A DNA stretch of 64,000 nucleotides, from positions 1,549-65,548 of IMG/VR virus record IMGVR_UViG_3300028394_000078. One strand, written 5' to 3'. The notes under the pieces are model-generated. The model was given only the letters and a program-made list of their open reading frames with translations. It ran no database searches and had not been told where the DNA came from. The stretch is from a virus. Lineage: Duplodnaviria; Caudoviricetes. The first letter of the stretch is position 1. Each line of letters begins with the position of its first letter. The position numbers and the translations under genes are program-made. Positions 1,075-47,000 of the stretch are shown piece by piece.

Positions 1075-1905
1075 ATGGACCATTATACAACTTTAGGCGT
1101 AGATCGAAACGCAAGTCCGGAAGACATTAAACGGGCATATCGAAAACTAGCAGGACAGCATCATCCAGATAAAGGTGGTGATACTGCCAAATTTCAACAA
1201 ATTGAAGAAGCATATCGAACATTGAGTGACGATGGAAAACGTCAACAATACGATAATCCAGCACCCCAAGGATTTCATCAACAAGGCGGAATGCCTCCAG
1301 GATTTGAAGACATTTTTAGTCATATGTTTGGAGGAAACGGATCTCCATTTGATCATATGTTTGGTGGCCGCAGGCCGCAACCTGTTAGAAATAGAACTTT
1401 AAACTTGCAAACACAGATATTGTTAGAAGAAGCATTTCATGGTAAAGAACTGTTAGCAACAATACAATTGCCATCAGGTAGAGAACAAATATTGCAGGTA
1501 AAAATTCCACCAGGTGTTAGTGACGGTACTACATTGAGACTGGCAGGCATGGGGGATGATAGCATTGGAAATATGCCAAGAGGTGATATACATTTGTCAG
1601 TACATGTATTACCACATAATATATATCAAAGGCAAGGCGACGATCTTGTTAGAAATTTACCTATTAATTGTTTAGATGCAATTGTAGGTAAAACTTTACA
1701 ATTTGACACTATAGATAGCAAAACATTAGAAATTGAAATTGCGCCTGGTACACAGCATGGTCAAACACTTGCTGTGCAAGGATACGGAATGCCTAATATG
1801 TCTAATTTCTATATGAGAGGACGATTGTTATTAAATATTAATATCACTGTACCAACTAATTTAACAGATGAACAAAAAATACTTATTAATCAAATATTAT
1901 GTTAA
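1075..1905 (+). CDS. dnaJ: class II DnaJ/CbpA-like co-chaperone
   Basis: J-domain with HPD, G/F region, C-terminal domains, no Zn finger. Confidence 0.92.
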
Positions 1906-2402
1906 AACTTGTAAAATTTCCAGATCCTATACTCAGGCAACGTATGCCTGATTTTGATTTTACTAATCCTATTAAGGATCCGATAGAACTTGAAAAGACA
2001 ATGCTAGCAATGATGTTTGAACATGACGGCATCGGACTTGCGGCTAATCAAGTGGGTATTAATACTCGTGTGTTTGTTATGGGTCATAGAGTAAATGCTG
2101 AGTCTGCTCAAGCATTTTTTAATCCTGAAATAATTGCAAATACAGAAGAAATTGCCGACATAGAAGAAGGATGTTTGAGTTTTCCTAAGATCTATGTTAA
2201 TATTAAACGACCTAAAGCAATTAAGGCTCGTTGGCAAAATAGCCGAGGAGAATTTGAGGAGGGCGAGTTTGATGGTTATAACTGTAAGTGCTTCTTACAT
2301 GAATATGATCATCTAGAGGGAATTACATTCCAAGATAGAGTCAGTGCTCTTAAATGGGCAATGGCAGTTAAGAAAACTAAAGTAAAGAGAAAATACAAAT
2401 AA
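1899..2402 (+). CDS. def: peptide deformylase
   Basis: [13 protein letters not shown] and HEYDH motifs. Confidence 0.95.
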
Positions 2403-4681
2403 TGCTACAACCAAATAAAGACCTCGAAGAAATTTTTGAATCAGCAGTTAGATTCGCTAATGAACATAATCATGAATTTATTACATTAGAACATTTTCTT
2501 TATAGTATGGTTAAAAATGAACCGTTTGCTAAATTATTAACCAATTTTGGTACAGATGTTACAACACTCATCGTTGATCTTGAAAAATATATCACAGATG
2601 AATTAAGTGGAATAGTTAACACCAGTGTTGATAGGCCTAAAAAAACACAAGCAGTTGAAAGAATACTTAATCGTGCATTCTCACAAACATTATTTGCTGG
2701 TAGACAAATAATCGAACCAGTTGATTGCTTCATTAGTATGTTTGCAGAAAAGAAAAGTTATGCAAACTATTTTATTCGTAAAGCAAATATAGATAAAGAT
2801 AAATTTATAAATTATATACAAAAAGAATATTCAAAAGAAGAAGAAGTTGAGGAAGGTACCCCTACTAATGTCAGTCCTCAGATTGAGCGTATGCTTAATC
2901 AATTTTGTGTTAATCTAAGTGCTCGTGCAAAATCTAAAAAGATCGATCCTGTTATCGGTCGTGAAAAAGAAATAGAAGAAGTACAACTAGTGCTAGCACG
3001 TAGAAATAAAGCCAATGTTATGTTGATCGGTGATCCGGGTGTTGGTAAGACTGCTATTGCAGAGGGTTTAGCACGTAAAATTTACGAAAGTAATGTTCCT
3101 AAATTTATTCAAGACCATACTGTTTATAGTTTAGACATAAGTGCATTGTTAGCAGGCAGCAAATATCGTGGTGACTTTGAAGAACGCTTAAAGATGGTAT
3201 TAGGTGCATTAGAAAAGAAAAAGAATTGCATACTATTCATTGACGAAGCACATATGATGAATGGTGCTGGTGCTAATAGTGGTGGTAGCAATGATATGGC
3301 AAATATGCTTAAACCTGCTTTAAGCAAAGGTACTATTAAAGTTGTTGCTAGTACTACATGGGAAGAATTCCGTAAACACTTTGAAAAAGATCGTGCTCTA
3401 ATGCGTCGATTCCAACGTGTTACTGTAGACGAGCCGGATGAGTCTACTACTATTAAAATCCTTAAAGGTCTACGCAAGTATTACGAAAAACATCACGGTG
3501 TTAAAATCACTAATCAAGCACTAACTGATGCAGTAACATACTCAGTTAAGTATATGACCGATAAAAAATTGCCTGACAAAGCAATTGACCTTATCGATTG
3601 TGCTAGTGCTCGCTTTAAAATTAAAGATGAAGAAAACGGTGTAGTAGACCATGATGAAATATTGTTTGAAGTAGCAAAGATTGCTAATTTACCTTTAGAA
3701 CAAATCAACTCTAAAGAAGGTGCAAATCTTGCAGGACTTGAAAAAGGTATGCGAAACAAAGTATTCGGGCAAGAAAAAGCCATCGAAACACTGCTAGACA
3801 AAATCTTCATTGCACAGGCAGGGCTTAAAGCATTCAATAAACCTGTAGGAAGTTTCTTATTTGTTGGTCCAACTGGTGTAGGTAAGACTGAAGTTGCTAA
3901 ACAACTTGCATCAAATATGGGAATCAAAATGATTCGCTTTGATATGAGTGAATTTCAAGAGAAACATAGTGTAGCCAAGTTTATTGGTGCACCCCCCGGA
4001 TATGTAGGGTTTGATGATAATGCTGGACAATTGATTACCGGACTACAAGAACACCCTAATTGTGTATTATTGTTAGATGAGGTAGAAAAAGCACATCCAG
4101 ATGTACTTACTGTTCTTCTACAATTAATGGATAATGGCTTTATTACTGGTAGCAATGGTAAGAAAGCGGATGGTCGTAATGCTATTATCATTATGACCAG
4201 TAACTTAGGTGCTGCTGATGCTGAAAAGAACAGCGTAGGATTTGGTAGTTTAGAGCGTGACGGTGATCCGAAGGACGCTGTAAACAAATTCTTTGCACCT
4301 GAATTCCGAAATCGTTTAGATGGCATTATTAAGTTTGGTAAGTTAGACCAAACTAGCATGATTAAAGTGGTTAAGAAGTTTATTGATGATTTAAATGCAT
4401 TGGTTAAAGATAAGAACATACATGTAAAACCCAATAATGATGCTATTGAGTATCTGATTAAGAAAGGATTTGATAGTAAAATGGGTGCTCGTCCATTACA
4501 ACGTACTATTGATGATATGATTAAAAAACCATTAAGCAAAGAAATCTTATTTGGTAAGTTAACTAATGGTGGAGTTGTTGAAGTATCCATTGAAGATAGT
4601 AAACTTAAACTTAACATCATTGAAGTATTACCTATTATTAAGGTTGAAAAAAATGCAGATACAGAAACTGAACTCCAGTAA
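2402..4681 (+). CDS. clpA: ATP-dependent Clp protease ATPase subunit ClpA
   Basis: N-domain, two AAA+ modules (GDPGVGKT, GPTGVGKT), no middle coiled-coil, ClpP-binding VGF loop. Confidence 0.92.
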   Translation: MLQPNKDLEEIFESAVRFANEHNHEFITLEHFLYSMVKNEPFAKLLTNFGTDVTTLIVDLEKYITDELSGIVNTSVDRPKKTQAVERILNRAFSQTLFAGRQIIEPVDCFISMFAEKKSYANYFIRKANIDKDKFINYIQKEYSKEEEVEEGTPTNVSPQIERMLNQFCVNLSARAKSKKIDPVIGREKEIEEVQLVLARRNKANVMLIGDPGVGKTAIAEGLARKIYESNVPKFIQDHTVYSLDISALLAGSKYRGDFEERLKMVLGALEKKKNCILFIDEAHMMNGAGANSGGSNDMANMLKPALSKGTIKVVASTTWEEFRKHFEKDRALMRRFQRVTVDEPDESTTIKILKGLRKYYEKHHGVKITNQALTDAVTYSVKYMTDKKLPDKAIDLIDCASARFKIKDEENGVVDHDEILFEVAKIANLPLEQINSKEGANLAGLEKGMRNKVFGQEKAIETLLDKIFIAQAGLKAFNKPVGSFLFVGPTGVGKTEVAKQLASNMGIKMIRFDMSEFQEKHSVAKFIGAPPGYVGFDDNAGQLITGLQEHPNCVLLLDEVEKAHPDVLTVLLQLMDNGFITGSNGKKADGRNAIIIMTSNLGAADAEKNSVGFGSLERDGDPKDAVNKFFAPEFRNRLDGIIKFGKLDQTSMIKVVKKFIDDLNALVKDKNIHVKPNNDAIEYLIKKGFDSKMGARPLQRTIDDMIKKPLSKEILFGKLTNGGVVEVSIEDSKLKLNIIEVLPIIKVEKNADTETELQ

Positions 4682-6674: not shown

Positions 6675-9600
6675 GTGATATTAAATGAACTATTTAGAAA
6701 TCCTAAATTAGCATTATCTGAGGGTGGTAATTTAGAATTACCTAATCCAGACGATCCCACTACCCCCTATCAAGCAGACGAAATTGATCTTAAAGTTCAT
6801 AACCGTACATTTATGGTAGGGCTATTGGATAAGTTATTACATGACGTAAATGCTGCTTTCTATGGTCAATACAAAAAACCGATATGGAATCCAGCGTTAC
6901 TTCAATCAAAAGAGTTTTTAGGTGGAAGCAGTTTGCACTTTTTTAATACCGCAGGTATTAGTGATAAAGAATTTGCCAAACATAAACCCAAAGTAGGCGA
7001 CATTGATACACAATGTAACAAAGAACTCGAACCAGAACTTAGAGAATTTTTAACTTCTTATAATCACAAACCAATAGGCGATGCAACATTACTAGGATTT
7101 ACTCAAGGCAATGAACAACTTAATGCATTGTTTCAATTTCAAGATCCTCCAATTAAAATTCAAATAGATTTTGAACTTGGTCGTTATGCTCCGGAAACAG
7201 ATACACCGGACGAATGGTATAGGTTCAGCCATAGTTCAGAATGGAATGATATTCAGGCAGGTATTAAAGGTGTATTCCACAAATATATCTATAGAGCATT
7301 AACTGCTGCACATGGTAGTATTAAACATCAAGTTAATGTATTAAAAACAAAAACTAATATTAAACCAAATGTTGATGATAACGATTTATCATTTGCAGTG
7401 GCCAGCGGACAAGGTGGTGGATTAAGTCAAAAGTACGAACCATACATACATACCGATCCTACTACTGGTGAGAAAATGACTCACCAAGATAATGTTCCTT
7501 ACAAAAGATTGATCCCAGCGCCTGAAAGAACTTATATACAGCAATTAGATAAACAATTCTATTATTTCTTTGGTGCAAACCCAGAAGGCAATGATAAAGA
7601 ATTGCAAAAGAGTTTCTTAGGCGCACTTGAATTAATTAACAAATATATACCTGATCAAGCAGCAAAAGAAAAAGTGTTCATGTCATTTTTAAACTTATGT
7701 TTTGAACCGGGCGCTCAAATGATTACCAAAGGTGATCCACAACGAGATCAAGAAATTAAATTTGCTGCAATAGATAACTTTATTAAAATTTGTAAATTAA
7801 ATAATCTAAGAAAAACTGCTATAGATATGGGCAAGGCATATATTAAAGATTTTGAAGAAGTAGAAGCATTTAGAAAAGCCAATCCAGGTGAAAAGCAACC
7901 ACGTGCTGCAATGAAAAAACAAGGTCTAAGAGAAGAGGCACAGGTCAAAGCACAATTCCGTAAAGGTATGCCACACTTGCACGATCTTAAGCCTGCTGAC
8001 TTGTTAGATTTATTAGACGAAATTCATGACGGAAACGGCAATTTTAAACTTGAAAACATCCCTTTAAACGTCAAAGTAGATGGATTCGGTGGTAGATTTG
8101 GTAAGAATTCCGAAGGTCGGCCTTTCATGGGCACCAGTAGAACAGAACCAAGATACGAACCAGGCTTTGTAGCATATCATCAAAAGAAAGGCACTACTGA
8201 TCCAGAAGTATTAGGTCGTGCAGAATTGTTTGATCAATTGTTTGAAGAGATGATGAAGGCTGTTAAGTTAGTCGATAGCAAGTTAGGCCCTGGATTTTTA
8301 GTCAATAAACAAGTGACCTGTGAAGTATTGTATCTGCCATTTGCCACAGAAACTCCAGAAGGCAAATTAAAGTTTGTGGGCATACACTACGACAAATTAC
8401 CATCGGGTGTTAAACTTGCATTAGTACCATTCCGTATTACAGATGCTACCACAGGTGATGATTTACCTAACTCAAATAAAATTGTACAAGAACTAACCAG
8501 TGTAGGACAATCCGGCAGTGTCATGTTCATTGACAACAGCCTAACACAAAATGAAGCATTGGATGTTACAGCATTAGTTCCGCCTGTAGAGAATATCGAC
8601 GAATTAAAAGCCATGTTGGCCAGCAACAAATTAGAAGCCAGACGACAAGTTAAGGCAGCATTAGAACCTGTGGCAGCAGCATTAGAAAAAGCAATCATTA
8701 ACGATCCTAACATCATAGGCAAAGATTTGTTAGGACAAGACTATGAAGGTATTGTTATCAATAGTCGCCTTGGTCCTATTAAAGTAACCAGTCAAGAACA
8801 ACGTGATGTTATCACTGCCAAGAATGCTGCTAAAGTAAATGCAAGAACAGAGCGTCCAAGAGGCGAGGCTAAGACCGCAGTAGTTGCTATTGGAAGTTTT
8901 GTTGGACATATCGGTCATGAACAACTTTGGGATTATACCACTAAAAAAGCAGCAGCAGTAGGAGGTGATCCATATTTGTTTATTGGCAATGCACAGGGCA
9001 AAGATGATCCTATTCCACCGCCAGTCAAAGTACAGACCTGGCATAAACTATATCCAGAATATGCTAAGAATATTAGCACCGTGACCCAAGATGGTGGATC
9101 ACTATTACAAAAAATCAAACACGAGTTAATCAATCCACTTCCAGGTAAGCCTCCACGCTATGACAATGTTATTATTATGGTAGGCGAGGATCAAGCAGGT
9201 CTTACCATGCCACAGGCATTAATGAAGGCTGTTAATAAGTTTCCAGGATATGAACATGTTAAGGTTACATTAGAGCCAACACCACGTGGCACTGGTATGA
9301 GTTTTACTCGACTACGTAACATATTAAAAGATCCTAACGCTACTGAACAACAGCAATTAGCCGTGTGGAGTCAAGGATTTGATGTACAAAAATTAGGTGC
9401 TGACTGGATTAAACACCTAATGGACATAACAAGGAAAGGTATGGGAATACAACAAGCACCGGCACCTGTGCCACAACCAGACCCTGCTCCTATAGCAGAA
9501 CAAAGAGTATTAAATGCCCTAGTAGAAGGTACCAGCATTGACAGCACACTACGAGCAATCATCAATGACATTGGCGAGCCTATTACCAGTGTTTATGACA

Positions 9601-28772: not shown

Positions 28773-29855
28773 ATGGCAGAAAAAATTTCCGCAAATCGTA
28801 CTGTTAGCCCAAAAGAGGCTAAAGCAGCAATCCGCAAGTGTGTTAAGAAACAACGCCCGGTGTTCATGTGGGGTCCTCCAGGAATTGGTAAAAGCGATAT
28901 TATCAAACAACTCGGCGACGAACAAGGTCGTGAGGTTATAGATGTTCGTTTGAGTCTTTGGGAACCTACTGACATTAAAGGTATTCCGTACTACAATAGT
29001 AATTCAAATACTATGACTTGGGCGCCGCCTGCAGAATTGCCTACTGATCCAGAGTCTACTGCTATCCTGTTCTTGGATGAATTGAACTCTGCGGCACCTG
29101 CTACACAGGCAGCGGCATTCCAATTGGTTCTTAATCGTCGAGTTGGTACTTACATTCTGCCAAAAGGTGTGAGCATTGTTGCTGCCGGTAATCGCGAAAC
29201 TGATAAAGGTGTTACTTATCGCATGCCTGCTCCGTTGGCTAACCGTTTCCTGCACTTAGAATTGCGTACAGATTATGAAGATTGGTTAGAATGGGCTGTA
29301 AACAATTTTGAACACGAACAAGTTGTTGGTTATTTGGGTTTTGCCAAACAAGATCTGTACGATTTTGATCCAAAGAGTTCAAGCCGTGCATTCGCTACAC
29401 CACGTAGTTGGCATTTTGTTAGCGAATTGCTTGACGATGATGATGTATCCGATTCTACACTAACTGACCTAATTGCAGGTGCAGTAGGTGAAGGCCTGGC
29501 TGTTAAGTTTATGGCACACCGTCGTGTTGCTAAACAGATGCCTAACCCTAGCGATATCTTGTCGGGCAAAGTTAAGAAGTGCGAAATTAAAGAAATTTCT
29601 GCAATGTATTCTTTGAGCATTAGCCTATGCTATGAATTGAAAGAAGCAGATCGTAAGAAAATTAAAGGCTGGGATGAGATGGCAGATAACTTCTTTTTGT
29701 TCTTGATGGATAATTTCCCAACTGAACTTATTGTTATGGGTGCCAAGGTTGCTTTGACTAATTATGAACTGCCATTTGATGCTAGCAAGTTGAAAAACTT
29801 TGATCGCTTCCATGAAAAGTATGGCAAATACATTATCACAGCAATGGAAGGCTAA
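28773..29855 (+). CDS. MoxR-type AAA+ ATPase
   Basis: GPPGIGKS, LFLDELN, AAGN and LANRF. Confidence 0.9.
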   Translation: MAEKISANRTVSPKEAKAAIRKCVKKQRPVFMWGPPGIGKSDIIKQLGDEQGREVIDVRLSLWEPTDIKGIPYYNSNSNTMTWAPPAELPTDPESTAILFLDELNSAAPATQAAAFQLVLNRRVGTYILPKGVSIVAAGNRETDKGVTYRMPAPLANRFLHLELRTDYEDWLEWAVNNFEHEQVVGYLGFAKQDLYDFDPKSSSRAFATPRSWHFVSELLDDDDVSDSTLTDLIAGAVGEGLAVKFMAHRRVAKQMPNPSDILSGKVKKCEIKEISAMYSLSISLCYELKEADRKKIKGWDEMADNFFLFLMDNFPTELIVMGAKVALTNYELPFDASKLKNFDRFHEKYGKYIITAMEG

Positions 29856-29859
29856 AATT

Positions 29860-29880
29860 GGGTCCTTAGGGGCCCTTTTT
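29860..29880 (+). terminator. intrinsic terminator
   Basis: GGGTCC-TTAG-GGGCCC-TTTTT. Confidence 0.85.
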
Positions 29881-29882
29881 AC

Positions 29883-29911
29883 TTGCTCTTTTGATAAATT
29901 TAATGTATAAT
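29883..29911 (+). promoter_or_regulatory. sigma70-type promoter
   Basis: TTGCTC-17-TATAAT. Confidence 0.65.
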
Positions 29912-29939
29912 ATATACTTAAACACTAAAAGGATATGCT

Positions 29940-31205
29940 ATGTCTAAAGTAATGAAACAAGAACGCACTAAAAAAGATTGGACAGATCGTCAATTTACAG
30001 CGGCAGAAAAGAATAAGATTGTAGAAAAACTTATTACTGCTCGTGTTGGATTGCTACTTCGTCATCCTTTCTTTGGCAATTTGGCTACACGTATGCAATT
30101 GATTGATGCTAGCGAATGGTGTAGCACATTGGCAACAGATGGAAGAAACTTCTATTACAATAATGGTTTTGTACATAAACTAACTCCTAAAGAAGCAGAA
30201 TTTGGATTTGGTCATGAAGTACTACACAATGTATTTGACCACATGGGACGTCGAGAAAATCGTGATCCTCAACTGTCAAACATTGCCGCTGACTATGCCG
30301 CTAATCAAATTCTAAAGGATGAACGCATTGGAATGTTTCCAAGTTTCATGCAATGTTTTCAAGATGACAAATATCGTGGAATAAGTTACGAACAAATTTA
30401 CGACATCCTTTATGAGAAGGCAGAAAAGATTAATCTCGATTCGTTAGGCGAGTTACTGGACGAACATTTAGATGACGGTGACGAGGGCGAGGGCGAGGGC
30501 GGCGACAAAGATGGTAACACCAAAGGCAAGGGCAAGGGTCGTCCTAAATTAACTGCTGAAGAAAAAAAAGCCATTCGTGATGAAATGAAGGAAGCCATTG
30601 TAGCAGCCGCACAAGCCGCCGGTGCTGGTAGGGTGCCGGCAGGTATCCAACGTATGATTACAGACTTTACTGAACCTAAAATGGATTGGCGTCAGATCCT
30701 GCGTATGCAGATCCAAAGCATCTACAAAAGCAATTACAGTTTTACCCGGCCTAATCGTAAAAGCCAACACTGCGGTGCTATATTGCCAGGAATGATGAAT
30801 GAGGATACTATTGATGTTTCAGTAGCAATCGATATGAGCGGAAGTATCTCGGATGTAATGGCTAAAGACTTTATTAGTGAAGTTAAGGGTATTATGGATG
30901 AGTACAAAGACTTCAAATTGGATCTGTGGTGCTTTGATACTGAAGTGTATAACTATGCTAAATTCACCGGCGATAATGCTGACGATATCTTGAATTACGA
31001 AGTTAAAGGTGGTGGCGGTACTGACTTTGATGCCAATTATGAATTTATGAAACGTGAAGATATTAATCCAAAGAAATTTATTATGTTTACAGATGGGTAT
31101 CCTTGCGGGAGTTGGGGTGACGAAGAATATTGCGAAAGTCTATTTGTTATTCACGGTAATGAAACCATAATTGCACCATTCGGCGAGACCGCATATTATA
31201 AATAA
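29940..31205 (+). CDS. HExxH metallopeptidase + VWA domain protein (DUF2201-like MoxR partner)
   Basis: HEVLH; MIDAS DMSGS...GGGTDF...FTDG. Confidence 0.88.
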   Translation: MSKVMKQERTKKDWTDRQFTAAEKNKIVEKLITARVGLLLRHPFFGNLATRMQLIDASEWCSTLATDGRNFYYNNGFVHKLTPKEAEFGFGHEVLHNVFDHMGRRENRDPQLSNIAADYAANQILKDERIGMFPSFMQCFQDDKYRGISYEQIYDILYEKAEKINLDSLGELLDEHLDDGDEGEGEGGDKDGNTKGKGKGRPKLTAEEKKAIRDEMKEAIVAAAQAAGAGRVPAGIQRMITDFTEPKMDWRQILRMQIQSIYKSNYSFTRPNRKSQHCGAILPGMMNEDTIDVSVAIDMSGSISDVMAKDFISEVKGIMDEYKDFKLDLWCFDTEVYNYAKFTGDNADDILNYEVKGGGGTDFDANYEFMKREDINPKKFIMFTDGYPCGSWGDEEYCESLFVIHGNETIIAPFGETAYYK

Positions 31206-38086: not shown

Positions 38087-41000
38087 CTATTCGCCATAGT
38101 AATATTTTCCTGGTAATTCTGCTTCCTTTTCACGCAAAAATTCAGCCTGTATTACAGGACTAGTTAATAAAGATTCAGTACTTGTCCAAATATATCCGCA
38201 TTTTTGCACAATTGTGAGTCTTGTATTAATTTCTGTATTTTCTAAAATATTTAATGTTAATAATTGCGTTGATGTGTTTATTGAAAATTCTGGAGGTAAC
38301 ATAGTTATACTATTAGGCATTGGATCATAAGATTTTGTTTTATCATGTACAACTAAATCTGATTTACGAAGTTGACGGCCGCCGTAATATACTGTAACCT
38401 GATCAGCTGCAGGAATATTTGGATTTAATATAATACCTGCTCCTGTAATACCATTAGTTAATGTATTAATAATATAAGTTGACGAGGTAGTAGAAGTTGT
38501 TTGTATAAACGTCATTTCTTTATATGAAGATGCCCATGGCTGGATAACTTGATCGGTAACTATATCTCCTGAAACTCCAATAATTGTGCTTGAATAACGT
38601 CCAGATGCTGTTGTAACATGAGTTAATATGTTTCCATTTTTGGCACCAAATTCAATTCGTTTTCCATTAATTAAAACAACACCTGGTATTCCTGTAGATT
38701 GATCAGGTGGCATAATTTTACCAGCATCGTCTAGATAAATTTCTGTAGAAGTAGTATATACCGGTCTAACTAACTTTGCTTTAACATACGGTGATGTAGG
38801 AATGTCTTGTAAAGGACTTTGATCGATAACCGTTGTTCCTGCATGAGAAATAGAAGGTATTGATGTCCCTAATGTACCTCTTCTCAATTGACGCAAAGTA
38901 TTTCCATCCTTTATAAAGAATTCAATACGCTCAGCATCAATAATAATTACTCCTGGTTTATTAGTTAATGGATTTCCGGGAACTAAGTTGCTAGAATCAG
39001 TTACATGAATTTCAGTATCATTATAATGCAAAGGCTGATCTAATCTAGTAGTATAGAAAGAAGATAACCTATTAAAATGGTTTCTATCAAACATATCATT
39101 AAAAATTCTATATCCTAATATATGAGGACTAGTTACCGTTGGATTAAATGTAGTTATTAAAAGACCGCCTGAATCATAACGATAACGAAATTTAATTGTT
39201 TGCATATCGTCTAACAATTCATAATCAATACCTCGACGGAGATCAGATATCCAAATATGATTATCACTTAAAAGTGGATATAACAATTTATATGTATTAT
39301 AGATATTATAAGTACTAAACGTTTCAGTTCTTACCATTAAGTTTTTATCAGCGTTTCCAAAAGAAATAATTCGTACTGTAGCACCACCTAAGAACGAAGT
39401 TTTCATATATACATTATTTCCAGTGACTATGTACGCTGCAAACTTTAAATTTTCTATAGCAACTACATCACCATCTGTTAATAAACCATCCATAATTGTT
39501 ACCTGACTATAAATTAGATCAAGTGTATAATCAAACCCAGGACGAAGTTTTATACCATTAGCATATACACGAATTTCATCTGTTTTAAAATAATTTTGAG
39601 GATAGCCCTCCTCATTATTGATTTCAAATGTTAATTGATTGTTTTTAACTATGTAATAACTTGCTTTTGGAGGATCAAGTCTATAAACAAATACATTACC
39701 ATCTTGACCTATAGAAGTTTGGGTCACTATAAGTTGATTACTAACAGGCTCATTAGACGATAGTGGTACGTCAAGTGTTATATTAACGTTGAGGTAGGTA
39801 GGTGCTATTTCAAATACAGATTCATGCATATTATTAAAGTTTGTATAGTTAGATTCAAAAAACCATGCTTCGACTGTATGCGTCCACATAGGATCTAACC
39901 CATAAACTTTAACACATGCTCGTTTATTTTTTTCTCCCACATAAGTTAACATGTAACCGTAATCACTAGTATTTGTTATTTCATTAATTGGAGATCCACC
40001 AACTGTAACATATGCTTTTCGAACATCATCTATACTGGCAACACTTTCTACTATGCATGTACTAGAATTTGTAACTACTACCATATTACTATCTATTACC
40101 GAACGATCTCCACCAACTGTTAGCATAGTGTATCCTGCTCTACCAGGGTATTGTTGAGGTGCAACATGTATAATATTACCTTCCATGTAATATTGGCGCG
40201 GAAATGTAAATCCGTAAAATGGATTTCTTCTAGTATGGTCAAATTTACCGGGGCCGAGATATACCCATTGTCCACCATTTGTACTTTTACTATGATATAA
40301 ATGACTGGAAAAATCTTCAATATTTTTCCAGTCAACTTGTACATAAGCAGAGCTGTGATTACCCGCAATACCGGCAGTAAAACCGGCGCCATATGGATCG
40401 TTACCTCTCCATGTATTTTCATAAATCATTTCAATATATTGATCAGTACCATTAGAGTATACTACTACTTCGTATTCAATAGCAGGAACCGTCGGAGTGT
40501 CTTCTTTACGTGAAAAATGTGTTCCTTGAAAACGTACTCTAAGATAATTAAATGTTCCTATTGTACCGGTGCTAACCCATTGTCCCGGAATTTCACCAGT
40601 TGATAACGGCGTGATCCAAGTATTAGTTGCACGATCAGTTATACCGTAATTTGACCATAAGTCAGTATAGTGTACATAGATAGCAGCCACTGGCTGATAT
40701 GTTGGATTGGCCGGAGTGGTGAATACATCAAGATATGTTAAACTACCTATTGACCTGTTTTTCCAATCCATCGAGGGACCGCCCTGAGTTTGGTTTCCAA
40801 GAGTTATATATCCATTGTTTCCAAGAAAGATTCTATCGTATACAGTACCGTAAGAAACCAAATCAAATCCTAACGCAAAAAAGCCAGGATATGGGATATC
40901 ATCCTCGGCCTCTGCGTATCTATTGGTTGGATCTGGAATAATTAATCCAGGATTAAATCCTATAGGTCCTGCTGCTACAGCAGGTTGATTAATGTAATGT

Positions 41001-44000
41001 AACCCTCTTTCTACTTCTGCATCTGTTAATCTGCTAAGTTGGCTTCCATTATAATATACCATTAATCCGTCATAAGTTCCAGGTACTGATATTAATGTTG
41101 CAGTTGTAATTTCACCTTGTACTATTGGAAAAGTTCCACTTAATACATTAGCATAAGAATTTTCATCTTTAGTATATACATTAATACCGAGGTTATCTAA
41201 AACATGTCCTTTAACAAGTTCCTCAGGAGCATACTCAAAATCTGGATTTAAAAATGCATTTCCATCAATAATGTTACTTGTAGCCGTTGAAAGAATAGAA
41301 TTTGATATAAATGTACTTCCTTGACCATTTAAAAAGTTATTTTGATTATCCCATGATCCGCCAGGAATAGAAGTATCTAAACCTGATACCAATGTTTCGG
41401 GTTTCCAAAATTCTATAGCAGGATATCCATATACAAAAAAATCAAAATAATAACTAGGATTTGTTAATTGATAGAATGATACTATTGCCATTCCATTGCT
41501 ATCTTTTGTCATTTGATAGTATTCTGCACCAGGATACGGTCCTGTCACTGGTATCCCTGTAAGCATTGGAGTAGTTAATCCATCATTAAATATGCTAATT
41601 TTAGATATATCATTATATTTGATATGTAAATTTATTACTAATGCACTACTGGTAGGTTTATCATAAGTTTGCGAAAACTTATCTAATAAAAGTGATGTAG
41701 AATTAATAGAAGTTAGCAAGGTATTCACATTAACTAAGGAAGATAATGTAATAACTGCGGTTGTAGTTGACAAAGAAGTTTTTGCTTTTATAACAAAGTT
41801 ATTAGAGTCTAATACTTGATATACTATATAGTTTTCATTATATCCAGGAGAGGTAATTCCTGTTATAACAATTTGATCACCGGCAATTAATCCTCCTATA
41901 TTAAATGGTGTCATAGTTCTAACGGTTATTTTTGAACCAATTGTTGTTGCAGTTGAGTGTGCATATTGAATATTAAAAACAGGTCTGCTAATTGTAATAG
42001 CACGTGATTCAGTATTAACATCAATCACTGTAGTATCAGGTCTAATACGTATAGTTGAAGAATTTAGAATATTAATAACTTGTCCTGGCATAATACCTGT
42101 TGTTGTATTAAGAAATAATACAACAGAACCAGCCGATGCAGTAGATACTATTTTTGCAGATGCATAATAATTTATAAGTTCACTCCATCTAGAATTATCA
42201 ATATCAAATTTTCCGTAACCTTCAACAGTGTCCCAAGGAACAGAGTATTCAAATGGTAATCCCTGAATAATCGACCCGGAATATTCTAATCCAGTCATTA
42301 ATGATGATAATTTATCTGTAGAAGTATGTATTTTTTTAATTCTATCTAATGCTGTATATAACTCTATATTTTTATTATATGAAATTTTAAATACTTGATT
42401 TTCTAAAGGAATGTAATTTAAAAATCTAAATTCAGAATATTTTTTACTATACCCATTATATTTTTCTGTGTAATATCTTATTGTATAATCAGAACTTAAA
42501 ATTAATTTACCATCTAATGTCGGTAGTATGTTTAGTTTATTTGTCTCTGCTAACCAGGTAAGAACAAATTTATCATCACTTCCTGAACATATAAATGTAT
42601 CAGATACTTTAGTTTCTCCAATTTCTGAATTATAGTTTACTCTGTCAAATTTAATACCTATTGTATTTTTTCTAATTTTTGAATTTAATAATTTTCCTAC
42701 GACAGTAGCGGTAGAGGTGACATAAGGACCGCCGCCTGAAATAATTACAGTTGGAGTTTCTGTATATCCAGATCCACCGTTAGTTACTATTATTTGATAT
42801 ACTCCACCATTACTAATGTATGCATCGGCAGTAGCAGTAGAAGTGACATAAGGACCACCACCTAAAATAGTTACAGTTGGTGGAATTGTATATAGTTTAC
42901 CTTTTTTAGTAACTACTATAGATCCTATTTCCGATGTGTAGTTATCAGCCCAATCTTTCCATGGTAATTGATTAATTAGTGGATTTGATAATCTCACAAC
43001 ATCAAACAAGTTCGTTACTGTATTGTAATAAGACGGCAAATCAAAATCAGTTGCATTTAATTTTCCTAAAGCAGTATCTTCTAAATATGAATATTTAGAA
43101 GTATATTTTCTTAATTGTGTATGATATGGTTTAACTTCTTTAATATAATCTTCAAAATATTTTTCATCAGACAACTTATAAACAGAACGCTGATCAAAAG
43201 TTCCTATAACATTTGTTACATTTATAAAAGAAGTTTTAAATGCCCAGTCTAATAATTTTTGTTCAGTTAATGCATACTTAACTGCTGTAAAAAATAACAG
43301 ATTCCAATTTATTTTTAAATCATTAATAAAAATATCATTTTTTAATGCTTTTAATATATAATATATTTCTAAGTCAGGAATTTGATCGTACAATGTTCCT
43401 TCTAATGTATCTTCGTCATACGCATAATTTAATGTACTATAGTTCCATGTAGTATCTAATATTTGTATAGTACCGTTTGTGCTAAAGACTATATCATAAT
43501 TTTCAACAAAATTACCAGAGCCTAATGTTCTTTCAAGGACAATGCCAGAATCTTGTATTTTTACATAATTGCCTGGTATTATATTATTCAAGGTAGATAG
43601 ATCATATAAATGAGAAATTACATAATCATATTCTTTGAAAGAATTATAATTGTTGCTTACCCAATCAACATATTTCCAATATAACGGTGTATTGTATATT
43701 TGATTTTTAATCATAATCCATGTAGGATTTTGATCTAATTTTGACAATTTATAATCATATTGATGTTTAGTCCATATGTTATTATATTTTTCATCAATTT
43801 TAACAATAACTGTATGCGGTCTTACTACTAGTTCAGGCGCCGTTTCAAATCCATTTCCTGGATTTAATATAATTACTGAAATAATTTGACCATCATCATC
43901 GATATTAGTTAATATTTCGGCGCCGGATGTATCTGATACAACTGTTACTTTAGGAGGATTAGTATATCCATATCCCGGAGATATTATATTAACAGTAGTA

Positions 44001-47000
44001 ATTTTACCATTAATTACATAACATTCTAACGTTGCCTGAGAATATTTAACTGTAGAACTATATTCAATTGATTCTAATGCTGTTCTATCTTCAACTTTGA
44101 AATCATATTCTCTCAAAATAACATCTTCAATTTCATCTTTTTTATTTAAATTATCAAAACTATAATAATTTGTTATTTTATTTTTAATTAAAACAGAATT
44201 AGCAAATTCAACAATATTACGCAGTGCTTTTTTTCTATCCTTAAACATTGTCTGTTGAGGACGAATACTTATTCCATATCTATTTCTATATGTAGAATTA
44301 ATTGCAGGAACTGGATTACCTAATAAATCGTGCCCTAATAGACTATCAATTAATTTTTTCTCTAGTAACTCCGTAGGCATATTATACGGATCACCCTCTG
44401 CCAACAATAACCATTCTGTATGTCTTGGAATTGTATTACTAATTGAATCAATAACAATATTAGCATTAATTCTGTCACTTACTAGCATTGGTTGAACATT
44501 AGCAAAAGCCACACTATCCGATGACAATATTTCGGCAAATTTTAATCCATTGGCGGTTGGATCTGCAATTGTTCTAGAAATTTGATAACTACTTATTCTT
44601 CTATTTTTAACATTAGGAACAGTAACTTTATTTTTAACCCAAAAGAAATATATGTTTTCAAAAGAATTAGTTACATTATTAAATATTTGTTTAACAGATA
44701 CTATACTGTTATCTGGGTATTTAGGTTGCCCGCTTATTCCTTTTGTTAATCCGTCGTTGGTATCGGCCTGGGCGGCCCACTCACTGGGTAATAAATCTGA
44801 TCTTACCCATTCGTAAACATCAATAGTTGATCCAGGAAATAATTTACCCCAATTATTTTTTCTAAAAATATCATCGCCTTGCTCATACCAAACATATTTT
44901 ACAGTACTCAAGTCCCACCACAATTCACCTGTATGATCATCTATCCAACTAGTACTAGCATCAATTATAGAGGCAGCAAGACCAATTGTATAGGTTGCAG
45001 GATCAAATGCAGATTTATATTTTAATTCTTCTTCTGCAATACCTGGAATTTTGCCCTTCAATGGATCAAAAACATCTAAATATTCAACTAATTCTTCTTT
45101 AAAAGAATCTATTAATGCTATACGATCAATTGTAGAAATATTTACAAGGTCAGGCTGTTCTCTTAATAATTTTAAACTATTAACAGTTGGATCTATTTTA
45201 TAAAAATGATAAAAACTAGATGCATCTTCTGATATAATAGTATATGTTGGTGCACCGGCATATATACCGTTGTTTGTAACAGCAACTGATGCCCCATATT
45301 TGCTACCTTCAACTACTGATGGACTAAAAATTTCTTCGGCCAATACAAAATATTCATTTATATTATTATATGAATATATAGTTCCAGCATCTAATAACGG
45401 TTCTGTAAATTGTGTAATTCCTCCATCAAACAAGGTTTCTCCAATTTTAGAATTAATATCAAATTTAATTAATTTAGAATTATTTGTACCTAATGCACTT
45501 ATAGCCAATGTTTTACCATTACCACTAATAGAAATAGAATATCCAAATTTTAAATTATTTCGATGTGTTGGATTTTTTATAATTTGTGAAAGAATAAACT
45601 GGGTTCCATATTTTTTATAAACAGCAACTTTACCAAAAGGTTCTCCTGCTACTTTTGAATCCATTGAAGACACAAAAATATATAAACCGTCAGAAGATAC
45701 TACTACATCATTACCAAACGCTGTTGATGTTCCAAAAGGCGAAGTTAACGTTTGTACCCAAGATAAATTTTTATCAAATATTTGTACTACACCGACAGTT
45801 TTTCCTGCACTTACAATATGATACGGGGCACTTATTGCAATAACAGTACCTGTAGAATTTCCCGAAATCTTATGTCCAAACTGACTACTAGGAGTCAGCG
45901 ATACGTGAGAATTAAGTTTAATACCGGTTGGATATGCTGAAACTACAATGCTAGGTTTGATAGATGCTACAGCAGTTCTTTCTGCACGATTTGCAATAGC
46001 CTGAGAAGGATTGGCTAGATTATTTTCAATAACTGTTAAATTAAAAATACTATTATTTGGACCAAGTCCGTTAATCATCCAATATCTAATATCAGCATCA
46101 ACAGGATATAATTGTGCAACAGGGTTATTTTGATAAGCGGCGATTACTTCTGCTCTGCTGTTTACTATTCCAGCACCGTCTGCTGCTCTTTGTTCATCCC
46201 AATATGCTGCTTCTAGTGGATTAGCCGCTCTATATTCATATATTAAATTACTAAATTGAGAAAGTCCTTCAGTCATCCAATTTATTATAGTTATTTCACC
46301 ATAGTATACGGGTGCTGATAAATTAGCCGCTAATGCATATATTACATCTGCACGAGTTGCTTTATAATAATTTTCTCTTGTAATTTGATAAGCATATACA
46401 TTACCAGTTGTACTTGTTGATGAATTTCCCGGAGCACTAACTAATAATGTAGTAGATGTTGTAGCAGTAGTATTGTTAATATAAATTGAATGTCCAAACC
46501 TAGCGTTTGATGCATTAGAAGAAGTATTTGAAAATGGATTTACTATTACAACTACATCTGTTTCTTTAGTAAACAAAGAATCAATGCTACTTATTCTTAG
46601 TACGCCCTCTGAAGAGAAAGTTTTAATAGTTGATCCAGCGTCTGTTTGGGTGCCTAGAATTACTCTTCCAGTTGCTCCTACATCAGAATTTTTAATAACA
46701 ACATTAGATGCGGCAGGTGCACCTGTGAAATACAGATTTTTTAATTTGTCATATGCTAATGAATATCCAAAATCACTATTAACACCCGTTTGAGCATAGG
46801 TCCATCCGTTACCAGATGCTAAATCTAAACCATATTCAAACTTTTGTTCTAACTCTCCTGTAGATTTATGTTTTTTATAAATCCAAACGGCTCCTTTTCC
46901 TGCACGATGAGCAGGAAGCCAGCCTGGGCCGGAAACCATTAGTATGTCTGTATTATCTGATGTATATATAGATTGCCCAAGATATATATCAGTATATTCA

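What the first reader, a model, noticed from the sequence alone, without database searches (positions are those of the whole stretch)
6723..9450. Three unrelated nucleotidyltransferase folds fused in one protein
Seen in order: a Pol-beta-type signature (GGSS 6921, GDID 6996, QIDF), a covalent-NTase/ligase signature (KVDG 8073, EGIV, KVT) and a Rossmann HIGH-type signature (HIGH 8907, GMSFTRLR). Established: these superfamilies include CCA-adding and cyclic-nucleotide enzymes, RNA ligases and NMNAT/cytidylyltransferases. Inference: an injected counter-defence kit for tRNA/RNA repair, NAD+ restoration or protein nucleotidylation.
Basis: partly seen in the sequence, partly recalled or inferred. 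Interest (0 to 1): 0.72.

Follow-up and report, generated by a model that had tools for sequence, protein, structure and literature searches.

The report
Capsid-tagged phage polyprotein with three nucleotidyltransferases
A giant freshwater phage encodes one long protein that joins a polymerase-beta-like enzyme, an RNA-ligase-like enzyme and an NMNAT/PPAT-like adenylyltransferase behind a T4-style head-loading tag, so it is probably packed into the virus head, cut into pieces and injected to mend broken nucleic-acid ends, although none of this has been shown at the bench.

Summary
ORF 6675-11384 (+, 1569 aa) of a jumbo-phage fragment carries three different nucleotidyltransferase folds in the stated order. 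D1 (res 17-420) is Pol-beta-like, D2 (421-728) ligase-like and D3 (729-~925) HIGH/Rossmann. Each keeps its catalytic motif invariant in 22-63 homologues, gives a confident AlphaFold model and matches the expected solved structures. D1 is the weakest (Z<=7.9), D2 reaches Z 10.7 and D3 Z 13.6. Pfam recognises none of them. HMMER finds 854 representative relatives, and only one of 185,579 species genomes has a locus, on a phage-like contig. A second HIGH lineage, an HD domain and a P-loop kinase (plus a sub-threshold phosphoesterase) recur beside D1/D2, which fits nucleic-acid end repair, most likely of RNA. The injection idea gains sequence support. A T4-like leader ends L-S-E just before the folded domain. 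Hydrophobic-x-Glu sites sit at the D1/D2 junction (48 of 49) and after D3 (67 of 68), but not between D2 and D3 (1 of 57). Related contigs encode a T4-type prohead protease. Packaging, substrates and expression remain untested. Earlier agents of this scan noted this family on other DNA. I re-tested their leader and cleavage leads here.

The parts
6675..11384 (+). Whole ORF, 1569 aa, GTG start, directly after the stop of the upstream gene (6670)
   Evidence: the same architecture in related loci
6675..6722 (+). N-terminal leader, res 1-16 (MILNELFRNPKLALSE), ending L-S-E before the invariant G-G-N. Predicted capsid-targeting propeptide.
   Evidence: pLDDT<50 for res 1-16. 48 of 63 D1 homologues have a leader ending [LIVM]-x-E right before GGN, and 14 of 63 start M-GGN. 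T4 IPII and IPIII begin MKTYQEFIAE.
6723..7934 (+). D1, res 17-420: Pol-beta-superfamily nucleotidyltransferase with a beta-rich middle part and a C-terminal helical bundle. G84-S85 at 6924-6929, D109/D111 at 6999-7007, D165/E167 at 7167-7175.
   Evidence: phrog_19290, unknown function
7926..7934 (+). L418-R419-E420: predicted protease site at the D1/D2 junction
   Evidence: 48 of 49 fused homologues have [LIVMF]-x-E in the 30 aa before D2, nearly always at the junction and followed by A/E/D, in an otherwise variable linker
7935..8858 (+). D2, res 421-728: ligase-type (covalent lysyl-AMP) nucleotidyltransferase without an OB domain. K467 (KVDG) at 8073-8084, E550 at 8322-8324, EGIV at 8745-8756, K703 at 8781-8783.
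8859..9449 (+). D3, res 729-~925: HIGH-motif Rossmann nucleotidyltransferase (PPAT/NMNAT-like). H745-I-G-H748 at 8907-8918, R871...R881 at 9285-9317. It is joined to D2 by a linker that lacks Glu sites.
   Evidence: the D2/D3 linker has a site in 1 of 57 homologues
9489..9530 (+). Post-D3 junction: P-I-A-E942 | QRVLNALV-E951 | G, two predicted sites around a short leader-like peptide
   Evidence: 67 of 68 homologues have a site 8-60 aa after the end of D3, mostly P-(V/I)-A-E followed by (Q)RLFNAL...
9501..11381 (+). Variable tail, res 943-1569. No recognised domain here; homologues carry other enzyme domains in this position.
10704..10716 (+). First in-frame 13-mer GGTGTGGCGGAAG (G-V-A-E-G): cassette junction and predicted site
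10944..10956 (+). Second in-frame 13-mer GGTGTGGCGGAGG (G-V-A-E-A)
11235..11381 (+). Conserved C-terminal cap (C-W-x-G-Y...N-C-V-P-V-S-E...L-I-N-K-I-I-V-N-E-A), which ends many homologues whatever the tail
   Evidence: phrog_9737/4359/36547, unknown function; Synechococcus phage BUCT-ZZ01 hit at 61% identity
6311..6670 (+). Upstream gene with a similar leader (MKLTEFFNKPME...); conserved neighbour
11389..11769 (+). Downstream gene starting MRANEFITE (T4-like E-F-I-x-E). Its homologue lies inside the C-terminal end of the big ORF in L013, L017 and L021.
13116..14501 (+). Two further leader-bearing genes: 13116-13406 (MRANEFIIE) and 13407-14501 (MRINELLEA)

Best explanation
The ORF encodes a cargo polyprotein of a T4-related jumbo phage. 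A short N-terminal leader resembling the T4 capsid-targeting sequence would load it into the prohead. The phage's gp21-type (Peptidase_S77) protease would then cut after hydrophobic-x-Glu sites. That would release D1 (a template-independent or PolX-like nucleotidyltransferase), a D2-D3 fusion that stays joined (an RNA-ligase-like lysyl-AMP enzyme plus a HIGH-type adenylyl/cytidylyltransferase), and several tail fragments. The pieces would enter the cell with the DNA and act before any phage protein is made. Together they would restore broken nucleic-acid ends: D1 adds missing nucleotides to 3'-OH ends and D2 seals 3'-OH/5'-P breaks. RNA such as cleaved tRNA is the most likely substrate. D3 supplies or recycles an adenylylated cofactor (NMN to NAD+ is the leading candidate) or activates a phosphate for D2. 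What is shown: the three folds, their conserved catalytic residues, the recurrent association, the leader and the junction sites. What is inferred: packaging, cleavage, injection, every substrate, and co-operation of the three enzymes.
For: Folds and motifs. Association beyond this fusion: 40 of 150 representatives carry D1+D2+D3. Xanthomonas phage BUDD has D1, an unknown gene, D2 and a Pfam-recognised HIGH NTase as consecutive overlapping genes. The BUDD-type HIGH NTase shows no profile similarity to D3 (hhalign probability 0.4%), yet it is fused before D1 in P0125 and after D2 in P0072 and P0060. So two HIGH lineages were recruited to the same partners. Repair-like accessory domains occur in relatives: HD_4 in L012's tail (E 2.4e-17), a P-loop kinase fused to D1 in P0139 (Zeta_toxin 23.3 bits vs cutoff 22.3), and a sub-threshold calcineurin-like phosphoesterase after D2 in L031 (21.6 vs 27). 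All 3 isolate phages with D1 have an Rnl1-type RNA ligase above cutoff and none has RlaP. In print, RlaP Pol-beta NTases accompany RNA ligases and add 1-2 NMP to RNA 3'-OH ends (PMC7824862 section 3.4.9, read whole; preprint 10.64898/2025.12.29.696909, abstract and sections 5 and 10). Packaging: five adjacent genes (6311, 6675, 11389, 13116, 13407) begin with M-x-x-(N/T)-E-(F/L)-hydrophobic; among 80 ORFs the only other match is a doubtful internal TTG start. T4 IPII and IPIII begin MKTYQEFIAE. In T4 the first 10 residues suffice for head loading, and positions 8 and 10 govern cleavage (PMC9026906, passages). The D1 leader ends [LIVM]-x-E before GGN in 48 of 63 sequences, and 14 of 63 start at M-GGN. 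Junction sites: D1/D2 48 of 49, D2/D3 1 of 57, after D3 67 of 68. In the T4-like contig L031 the separate D1 and D2 genes each have such a leader. Peptidase_S77 is above cutoff in 3 of 5 related contigs.
Against: No virion proteome, N-terminal mapping or enzyme assay exists. The big ORF's own leader lacks the exact E-F-I-x-E of T4. The gene lies between DnaJ, deformylase and ClpA-like genes and superoxide dismutase and DNA polymerase, not in a head-gene block. TATAAATA occurs once in the window (31197) and not upstream of these genes. The prohead protease was not found on this 19%-complete fragment. Leader presence does not track protease presence: all 3 isolate phages have the protease, but only CP20's D1 has a leader. 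Hydrophobic-x-Glu is a short, common motif; my rough estimate is that about 40% of 30-aa windows hold one by chance. D1's structural scores are middling. RNA versus DNA is unresolved: Pol beta/lambda are Foldseek's top D1 hits, and DNA ligases score within 2 Z of RNA ligases. Motif V of D2 has one Lys (K-V-T), not the K-x-K that I recall for ligases. No kinase or phosphatase is in the window protein or in the neighbours scanned. D1 occurs alone in whole Vibrio and Campylobacter phage genomes, so it need not work with D2 or D3. Expression is not shown.
Confidence: 0.45

Rival explanations
1. It is a cytoplasmic, non-packaged multi-enzyme made during infection. The N-terminal peptide and the Glu-containing linkers are ordinary flexible segments or serve another role, and the protein acts uncut as an RNA-repair enzyme in the manner of RlaP plus RNA ligase.
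For: The gene context is replication and auxiliary genes, not head genes. There is no T4 late-promoter consensus nearby. Leaderless D1 genes exist in phages that have the protease. Published RNA-repair modules of phages are not known to be packaged (PMC7824862 section 3.4.9).
Against: The leader ends exactly where leaderless homologues start. The site pattern is strongly asymmetric: 48 of 49 and 67 of 68 against 1 of 57. Five adjacent genes share the leader. Separate D1 and D2 genes in L031 each carry one.
Confidence: 0.25
2. The substrate is DNA. A PolX-like gap-filling enzyme plus a nick-sealing ligase (functionally like ASFV PolX plus ligase, or bacterial LigD) would repair or finish the phage genome, for example on entry.
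For: Foldseek's top D1 hits are Pol beta and lambda. TdT, Pol beta, Pol lambda and PolX align over 159-182 residues, longer than the TUTases. BFVD hits include giant-virus PolX and a 'DNA polymerase-like protein'. DNA ligases score Z 8.4-9.0 against D2. In L031 the genes sit beside ribonucleotide reductase.
Against: D2's best matches are RNA ligases (Z 10.7 and 9.7; Foldseek E 6.5e-6), and D2 has no OB domain: D3 follows after a short linker. By recall, all DNA ligases have an OB domain. The highest D1 Z-scores are RNA-specific terminal transferases. D1 shows no 8-kDa or fingers part; alignments to Pol beta cover its residues 141-338 only.
Confidence: 0.2
3. The three enzymes are independent effectors strung together, as in polyvalent proteins, and not one pathway. 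D3 on its own would restore NAD+ (or another dinucleotide cofactor) against NAD-depleting defences.
For: Tails of homologues add unrelated enzymes: HD_4, ParB_N, Amidoligase_2, DUF6934 and sub-threshold matches to a second NTP_transf_2. Domains are mosaic: L011 is 46% identical in D1, 97% in D2 and 62% in D3. D1 alone is the commonest form, 56 of 150. D3 matches NMNAT, NadM and NadD at Z 11.8-12.1. Phage HIGH-type NMNATs in NAD+ salvage are described (PMC7824862 and PMC9503650, passages).
Against: D2 and D3 stay joined, with no junction site. A second, unrelated HIGH lineage occupies the same position next to D1/D2. No NadV-like partner was found among the ORFs scanned. PPAT scores as high as NMNAT.
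Confidence: 0.15

Closest known systems
T4 internal proteins IPI-III and Alt (capsid targeting sequence, gp21 processing, ejection with the DNA)
   Same: A short N-terminal leader with an E-F/L-hydrophobic core ending in hydrophobic-x-Glu (T4: MKTYQEFIAE). A Peptidase_S77 protease in the lineage. A cluster of unrelated genes sharing the leader. A possible C-terminal propeptide, as reported for Alt (PMC9026906, passages).
   Different: The cargo here is a 1569-aa multi-enzyme chain with internal sites, not a small basic protein or a single ADP-ribosyltransferase. The big ORF's leader is longer (16 aa) and less T4-like. Packaging is unproven.
RlaP (PF10127) plus RNA ligase repair modules (T4 NrdC.11; Pseudomonas RtcB operons)
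   Same: A Pol-beta-superfamily NTase with a C-terminal helical domain, genetically coupled to an RNA ligase. The predicted logic is to add nucleotides, then seal.
   Different: D1 does not match PF10127, and D2 matches no Pfam ligase family. Here the two are fused, and a HIGH NTase is added. I found no such addition in the passages and sections I read.
Polyvalent proteins of phages and conjugative elements (Iyer et al. 2017, PMC5512222)
   Same: Several disparate enzymatic domains in one chain. Variable domain content between relatives. Proposed delivery with the DNA and proteolytic processing.
   Different: No MuF, ArdC or zincin peptidase hub domain was found (only a weak M78 match in P0018). 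Processing would be by the prohead serine protease. In the passages I read, the paper says RNA ligases were never seen with the 2H domains of polyvalent proteins, and its Pol-beta NTases are minimal versions fused to ArdC-N.
Kinetoplastid RNA-editing TUTase plus REL1 ligase pair
   Same: D1's highest Z-scores are terminal uridylyltransferases, and D2 matches REL1 at Z 9.7 over 203 residues. Chemically this is add-then-seal.
   Different: The resemblance is one of working principle, not shared ancestry shown here. There is no guide RNA, endonuclease or exonuclease.
Phage NAD+ salvage adenylyltransferases NadM and NadR (HIGH superfamily)
   Same: D3 shares the fold and both motifs (Z 12.0-12.1 to NadM chains, 10.3 to NadR).
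   Different: D3 has no Nudix or kinase partner domain. No NadV was found in the ORFs scanned. It is fused to a ligase instead, and it is equally close to PPAT (Z 13.6).

Membership tests
Pol-beta-superfamily nucleotidyltransferase (D1) | hG[GS] motif followed by DxD on a strand, with a third carboxylate on a later strand (motif definition recalled) | tested here: met
   G84, S85, D109, D111, D165 and E167 are invariant in 63 sequences. In the model, D109 opens strand 109-115 and D165 lies in strand 159-169. The G-S to DxD spacing is 24 residues, longer than the 9-13 I recall as typical.
Pol-beta-superfamily nucleotidyltransferase (D1) | Pol-beta palm fold | tested here: met
   The listed Foldseek top hits are all Pol beta/lambda, prob 0.92-1.0 but E>=1.1e-3 and TM 0.22-0.28. 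VIA ranks 1-10 are all superfamily members, Z 6.8-7.9. The tool warns that such Z values are common, so the support is moderate.
RlaP (Pfam PF10127) | Match to the family HMM | tested here: not met
   PF10127 is not among the hmmscan hits for the whole protein (E<=1) or for res 1-400 (E<=10). HMMER's filters drop most matches above about 0.1.
RlaP (Pfam PF10127) | Genomic association with an RNA ligase | tested here: met
   D1 is fused to D2 here. It lies in one gene cluster with D2 in BUDD and L031. Rnl1 is present in 3 of 3 D1-bearing isolate phages.
RlaP (Pfam PF10127) | Adds 1-2 NMP to RNA 3'-OH ends | not testable with these tools
   The activity is known from preprint 10.64898/2025.12.29.696909 (abstract).
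Family X DNA polymerase | 8-kDa and fingers (helix-hairpin-helix) domains before the palm | tested here: inconclusive
   Alignments to Pol beta cover its residues 141-338 only. D1 has only one helix (44-66) before the core. No dedicated search for HhH motifs was made.
ATP-dependent RNA ligase / covalent nucleotidyltransferase (D2) | Motif I K-x-D-G with the nucleophilic lysine | tested here: met
   K467, D469 and G470 are invariant in 23 sequences, at the end of strand 45-48 of the model.
ATP-dependent RNA ligase / covalent nucleotidyltransferase (D2) | Motifs III, IIIa and IV (acidic, aromatic, E-G-x-x); definitions recalled | tested here: met
   E550 (CEVLY), F567, Y572, D573, E691 and G692 are invariant. 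The assignment to motifs is by order and strand position, not by a residue-level structural alignment.
ATP-dependent RNA ligase / covalent nucleotidyltransferase (D2) | Motif V K-x-K (recalled) | tested here: inconclusive
   Only one lysine: K703-V-T705, with K and T invariant.
ATP-dependent RNA ligase / covalent nucleotidyltransferase (D2) | Adenylyltransferase fold, with no OB domain (by recall, the feature that separates RNA ligases from DNA ligases and capping enzymes) | tested here: met
   Z 10.7 to Naegleria RNA ligase (192 aligned), 9.7 to REL1, 8.6-8.8 to Rnl3, Rnl2 and Trl1, and 8.4-9.0 to DNA ligases. D3 begins about 10 residues after D2's last strand.
Pfam RNA_ligase (PF09414) / RNA_lig_T4_1 (PF09511) | Match to the family HMM | tested here: not met
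   No Pfam family for D2 at E<=10. None of the 23 aligned members matches either family at E<=1.
HIGH-superfamily (cytidylyltransferase-like) nucleotidyltransferase (D3) | (T/H)-x-G-H motif after the first strand, and a C-terminal S-x-T-x-x-R type motif (recalled) | tested here: met
   G740, F742, G744, H745, G747, H748, R871, G872 and R881 are invariant in 22 sequences.
HIGH-superfamily (cytidylyltransferase-like) nucleotidyltransferase (D3) | Rossmann-like fold of PPAT/NMNAT | tested here: met
   Z 13.6, 151 of 161 PPAT residues aligned, rmsd 3.0. NMNAT 1f9a Z 12.0.
HIGH-superfamily (cytidylyltransferase-like) nucleotidyltransferase (D3) | Match to a Pfam family above its cutoff | tested here: not met
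   Only FAD_syn below cutoff: 13.4 bits here, and 21 of 22 members match with best E 1.7e-5. The profile against PDB sequences finds RibF at E 0.0034 over about 32 residues.
NMN adenylyltransferase specifically | Substrate-binding residues and activity | not tested
   The fold does not separate NMNAT from PPAT, NaMNAT or FMNAT.
T4-type capsid-targeted cargo | N-terminal leader resembling the T4 CTS and ending in I/L-x-E | tested here: met
   It is exact for genes 11389 and 13116 (E-F-I-x-E) and looser for the big ORF (N-E-L-F...L-S-E).
T4-type capsid-targeted cargo | gp21-type prohead protease in the phage | tested here: inconclusive
   Not on this 19%-complete fragment. Present above cutoff in 3 of 5 contigs searched, the other miss being a 31%-complete fragment.
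T4-type capsid-targeted cargo | Late expression (T4 late promoter TATAAATA, recalled) | tested here: not met
   One match in 64 kb, at 31197, against 15.4 expected; none upstream of these genes. The lineage's late promoter may differ.
T4-type capsid-targeted cargo | Presence of the processed protein in virions and ejection into the host | not testable with these tools
   No cultured member and no proteome.
Polyvalent proteins (Iyer et al. 2017) | Two or more disparate enzymatic domains in one chain, with content varying among relatives | tested here: met
Polyvalent proteins (Iyer et al. 2017) | Linkage to hub domains (zincin metallopeptidase, MuF, ArdC-N and others) | tested here: inconclusive
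   None found by Pfam in this protein or in the homologues scanned. There is a weak M78 match in P0018 (16.9 vs cutoff 22). The paper's own domain models and supplements were not available.

The most novel reading that the evidence does not exclude
The phage pre-loads its capsid with a complete nucleic-acid end-repair kit that works before any phage gene is expressed. That would defeat defences that act by cutting tRNA or draining NAD+/ATP. Within the kit, the uncut D2-D3 fusion would be a coupled machine with new chemistry: the HIGH-type transferase either adenylylates the 5'-phosphate end (or caps it with a dinucleotide) for the ligase fold, or regenerates NAD+ from NMN in cis for an NAD+-using RNA ligase. 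The tails would be diversified by in-frame shuffling of cassettes at a conserved 13-nt junction that also encodes the protease site.
Probability: 0.15. Interest if true: 0.85.

Novelty: new variant of a known kind. Interest (0 to 1): 0.66.

Why it matters
If true, this extends the T4 idea of injected head proteins, from small anti-restriction proteins and one ADP-ribosyltransferase to whole repair enzymes. It would also explain how a phage could survive defences that stop translation before it can make its own countermeasures. It defines three large enzyme families that Pfam does not recognise (854 representative relatives at E<=0.001 for the three-module query). Their catalytic residues are clear, and they can be expressed and assayed directly. 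The recurrent pairing of a ligase fold with a HIGH-type transferase, achieved with two unrelated HIGH lineages, points to a biochemical coupling that I did not find described. The leader and junction rules also give a sequence-based way to predict capsid cargo in uncultured T4-like jumbo phages.

Tried and rejected
Single-sequence searches were uninformative. Pfam on the whole protein and on five pieces found nothing significant. phmmer against PDB sequences found nothing, and the D2 profile against PDB sequences and Pfam also found nothing. Megablast against phages found no match.

The ESM Atlas search on the tail gave scores of 0.80 or less, a level that shuffled sequences often reach, so it was not used. 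ARAGORN found no tRNA in the window.

The unknown genes between D1 and D2 in BUDD and L031 are unrelated to each other and to this protein by phmmer.

The idea that leader presence tracks the prohead protease did not hold. The protease is in 3 of 3 isolate genomes, but a leader is on D1 in only 1 of the 3.

The T4 late-promoter consensus is absent upstream.

Expression could not be shown. The three RNA-labelled runs hold only contigs 90-99% identical to parts of the gene, and DNA may be present in such libraries. Runs with small shares are not used for habitat.

D2 and D3 were not found in the Vibrio SRILMA or Campylobacter CP20 genomes. The D3 search found nothing in any of the 3 records and had no positive control among them.

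The genome-contig scan with D2 returned one locus, on a phage-like contig binned into a MAG.

Burroughs and Aravind 2016 (the source of RlaP) is not held. Supplements of PMC7824862 and PMC5512222 were closed and may list these families.

Literature searches found no description of this three-enzyme combination or of capsid-targeted repair enzymes.


Full report
WHAT IS THERE. The finding lies in one uninterrupted ORF, window 6675-11384 (+), 1569 aa with a GTG start. The window is a 65.5-kb IMG/VR virus record that CheckV rates 19% complete, so it is a fragment of a jumbo phage. Its DNA polymerase is 42-52% identical to those of Sinorhizobium phage Phosso, Agrobacterium phage Atu_ph07 and Salicola phage SCTP-2.

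SEQUENCE SEARCHES. Pfam recognises nothing in the protein, whole or in pieces. The only hint is FAD_syn at E 0.068 on the HIGH motif. PHROGs gives families of unknown function: phrog_19290 on res 33-390, and phrog_9737 and others on the C-terminus. PDB sequences give nothing with single-sequence queries. An exhaustive HMMER search with res 1-960 against 1.84 billion representatives found 854 proteins at E<=0.001, 617 at 1e-10 and 173 at 1e-30. A BLAST classification of the 150 listed gave 40 with D1+D2+D3, 56 with D1 only, 23 with D3 only, 16 with D2+D3, 9 with D1+D2 and 6 with D2 only. Many of these are probably contig-truncated. A scan of IMG/VR returned 24 related loci, and I extracted the ORF from 21 of them. 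A scan of one genome for each of 185,579 prokaryote species with the D2 profile returned a single locus. It lies on a T4-like phage contig binned into a MAG. The family therefore looks phage-restricted.

THE THREE FOLDS. D1 alignment (63 sequences): G84, S85, G108, D109, D111, Q163, D165 and E167 are invariant. The AlphaFold model has pLDDT 93.1 and pTM 0.89, with residues 1-16 disordered. Foldseek against PDB lists only Pol beta and lambda at the top, but no hit reaches E<=0.001. The best is E 1.1e-3, with prob 0.92-1.0 and TM 0.22-0.28. VIA-align against 48,161 representative chains puts Pol-beta-superfamily enzymes at ranks 1-10: TUT7 (Z 7.9), TUT1, Trf4, OAS2, TdT, Pol beta, GLD-2 and CutA. 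Pol lambda, cGAS-like receptors, CdnG, ANT(2'') and poly(A) polymerase follow among lower rows that also hold unrelated helical proteins. The tool notes that Z under 8 is common, so D1 rests on fold and motifs together. BFVD shows uncharacterised phage relatives, including one from Atu_ph07, and giant-virus PolX lower down.

D2 alignment (23 sequences): the K, D and G of KVDG, the E of CEVLY, F567, Y572, D573, the EG of EGIV, and the K and T of KVT are invariant. D3 alignment (22 sequences): G-x-F-x-G-H-x-G-H and R871-G...R881 are invariant. The joint D2+D3 model has pLDDT 88.0 and pTM 0.58, so the mutual orientation is uncertain. Foldseek finds archaeal Rnl3 at E 6.5e-6, then Trl1, Naegleria ligase, REL1 and T4 Rnl1 for D2, and PPAT, FAD synthetase and NMNAT for D3. 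VIA-align gives D2 (model 4-297) Z 10.7 to Naegleria RNA ligase, 9.7 to REL1, 8.6-8.8 to Rnl3, T4 Rnl2 and Trl1, and 8.4-9.0 to DNA ligases. It gives D3 Z 13.6 to PPAT with 151 of 161 residues aligned, and 11.8-12.5 to NMNAT, NadM and NadD. D2 is followed directly by D3, so it has no OB domain.

ARE THE THREE FUNCTIONALLY LINKED? In Xanthomonas phage BUDD four overlapping genes encode, in order, D1 (HMM E 9.5e-78), an unknown protein, D2 (E 1.3e-35) and a HIGH NTase that passes Pfam's CTP_transf_like cutoff at 28.7 bits against 21. That HIGH enzyme has no profile similarity to D3 (hhalign probability 0.4%). Yet the same type is fused before D1 in P0125 (phmmer E 6e-39) and after D2 in P0072 and P0060. 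Two unrelated HIGH lineages in the same company argue for a functional coupling and against an accident of fusion.

Other partners look like end-healing enzymes. There is an HD_4 domain in L012's tail (E 2.4e-17). P0139 has a P-loop kinase fused to D1 (Zeta_toxin 23.3 bits against 22.3, with weak AAA_33 and CoaE matches). In L031 a sub-threshold calcineurin-like phosphoesterase follows D2. D1 also stands alone: the whole genomes of Vibrio phage SRILMA and Campylobacter phage CP20 have D1 but no detectable D2 or D3. All three isolate phages with D1 carry an Rnl1-type ligase above cutoff, and none carries RlaP.

In print, RlaP (PF10127) is the Pol-beta NTase that accompanies RNA ligases in phages and bacteria and adds one or two nucleotides to RNA 3'-OH ends. 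My sources are PMC7824862 section 3.4.9 (read whole) and preprint 10.64898/2025.12.29.696909 (abstract and sections 5 and 10). D1 is not a member by sequence but occupies the same niche. RNA ligases are D2's best structural matches, and RNA-specific terminal transferases give D1's highest Z. This favours RNA as the substrate, but Pol beta and lambda and the DNA ligases are close behind, so DNA is not excluded.

IS IT INJECTED? After I had reached the RNA-repair and polyvalent-protein reading, the scan's notebook showed that earlier agents had met this family on other genomes. They had proposed T4-style capsid-targeting leaders and Glu-specific cleavage. I treated these as leads and tested them here.

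(i) Among 80 ORFs of the window, the pattern M-x(2-4)-[EQ]-[FL]-[FILV] at the start is found at five adjacent genes: 6311 (MKLTEFF), 6675 (MILNELF), 11389 (MRANEFITE), 13116 (MRANEFIIE) and 13407 (MRINELL). The only other match is a doubtful internal TTG start at 30081.

(ii) T4 IPII and IPIII, read from the T4 record, both begin MKTYQEFIAE. [quoted passage not shown]

(iii) In the D1 family, 48 of 63 sequences have a leader ending [LIVM]-x-E immediately before the invariant G-G-N. Another 14 of 63 start at M-G-G-N, and 1 has a long N-terminus without a site. The boundary coincides with the first ordered residue of the model.

(iv) In fused homologues a hydrophobic-x-Glu site lies in the 30 residues before D2 in 48 of 49. 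It is nearly always at the junction and followed by A/E/D, while the rest of the linker varies. Between D2 and D3 the figure is 1 of 57. After D3 it is 67 of 68, usually P-(V/I)-A-E followed by a short leader-like peptide. The D2/D3 linker thus serves as an internal control.

(v) In the T4-like contig L031, separate D1 and D2 genes each begin with such a leader.

(vi) Peptidase_S77 is above cutoff in 3 of 5 contigs searched. It was not found on this fragment or on a 31%-complete one.

Against packaging: the neighbours are DnaJ, deformylase, a ClpA-like ATPase, superoxide dismutase, DNA polymerase, RNase-H-like exonuclease and thymidylate synthase, not head genes. TATAAATA is not upstream. BUDD and SRILMA have the protease but leaderless D1. 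Expression and packaging are untested.

THE TAIL. Residues 943-1569 have no recognised domain. Homologues carry other modules in this position: HD_4, ParB_N, Amidoligase_2, DUF6934 and sub-threshold matches to a second NTP_transf_2. Many end in the same cap of about 50-60 aa.

The peptide G-[VI]-A-E occurs 48 times in 172 homologue sequences, against a mean of 5.1 (maximum 12) in 200 shuffles. It sits where identical upstream contexts meet different downstream ones. At the DNA level it is almost always GGTGTGGCGGA(A/G)G, with synonymous sites fixed although the genome is 35-40% G+C. The window has 4 copies against 0.04 expected, all in 10.7-12.9 kb, and 13 of 31 loci have it. Contigs from other samples stop matching at these points. 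The element therefore marks cassette junctions. It may be both a recombination linker and a protease site (V-A-E|G).

COMPARISON AND NOVELTY. The working principles are known: T4 CTS cargo, RNA ligase plus Pol-beta NTase repair modules, and polyvalent injected proteins. What I did not find described is the set of three families themselves, the ligase-HIGH coupling, and repair enzymes as capsid cargo. That statement rests on the searches, on passages of PMC5512222 and PMC9503650, and on section 3.4.9 of PMC7824862. Supplements were closed, and Burroughs and Aravind 2016 is not held. I rate the finding a new variant of a known kind.

CONFIDENCE. Three NTase folds in one ORF: about 0.95. Capsid targeting and processing: about 0.6. 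Nucleic-acid end repair: about 0.6, with RNA favoured about 2:1 over DNA. All parts together: 0.45.

Noticed in passing
window 10704-10716, 10944-10956, 12260-12272, 12866-12878 (+): An in-frame 13-nt element, GGTGTGGCGGA(A/G)G (G-V-A-E-G/A), is repeated 4 times against 0.04 expected. Its synonymous sites are fixed across diverged phages, and it sits at cassette junctions of the tails and of the next ORF. Contigs from other samples break off at it. It could be a recombination linker, a protease site or both. At 10944 it is followed by GGAGG...ATG, which could also act as an internal start.
   Followed up: partly
window 11235-11381 (+): A conserved C-terminal cap (two Cys in C-W-x-G-Y...N-C-V-P, then an amphipathic L-I-N-K-I-I-V-N-E-A helix) ends many homologues whatever precedes it, even a 251-aa D3-only protein (P0124). 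It also matches a Synechococcus phage protein at 61% identity. Its function is unknown; it may be a C-terminal propeptide or an anchoring signal.
   Followed up: partly
window 11762-13066 (+): A 434-aa low-complexity ORF with two G-V-A-E-G junctions and an internal twin-arginine-like signal (SRRGFLKGAG, res 207-225; Pfam TAT_signal 21.1 bits vs cutoff 22.7). In P0055 the same signal follows a junction directly (GVAE-ADMNRRGFLK). That would expose a Tat-type N-terminus after cleavage.
   Followed up: no
whole window: TATAAATA (the T4 late-promoter consensus, recalled) occurs once (31197) against 15.4 expected from shuffles. That is a roughly 15-fold depletion in an AT-rich genome.
   Followed up: no
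window 1075-4681 and 14501-15043 (+): Host-like protein-maintenance genes lie upstream of the cargo-like cluster: DnaJ (1075-1905), peptide deformylase (1899-2402) and a ClpA-like ATPase (2402-4681). An Fe/Mn superoxide dismutase (14501-15043) lies downstream.
   Followed up: partly
window 38087-52855 (-): A 4922-aa ORF, flanked by ORFs of 1117, 764 and 1198 aa on the minus strand. Not examined.
   Followed up: no
window 28773-31205 (+): A MoxR-like AAA ATPase (28773-29855) next to a DUF2201 metallopeptidase/VWA protein (29940-31205).
   Followed up: no
L001 5849-6850 and L031 5895-7208: In both split operons an unrelated gene of unknown function (333 and 438 aa) sits between D1 and D2. Neither has a Pfam family or any similarity to the other.
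   Followed up: partly
L011, L020 and others vs window 6675-9500: Domain-wise mosaicism: L011 is 46% identical in D1, 97% in D2 and 62% in D3. This implies recombination at the module boundaries.
   Followed up: partly
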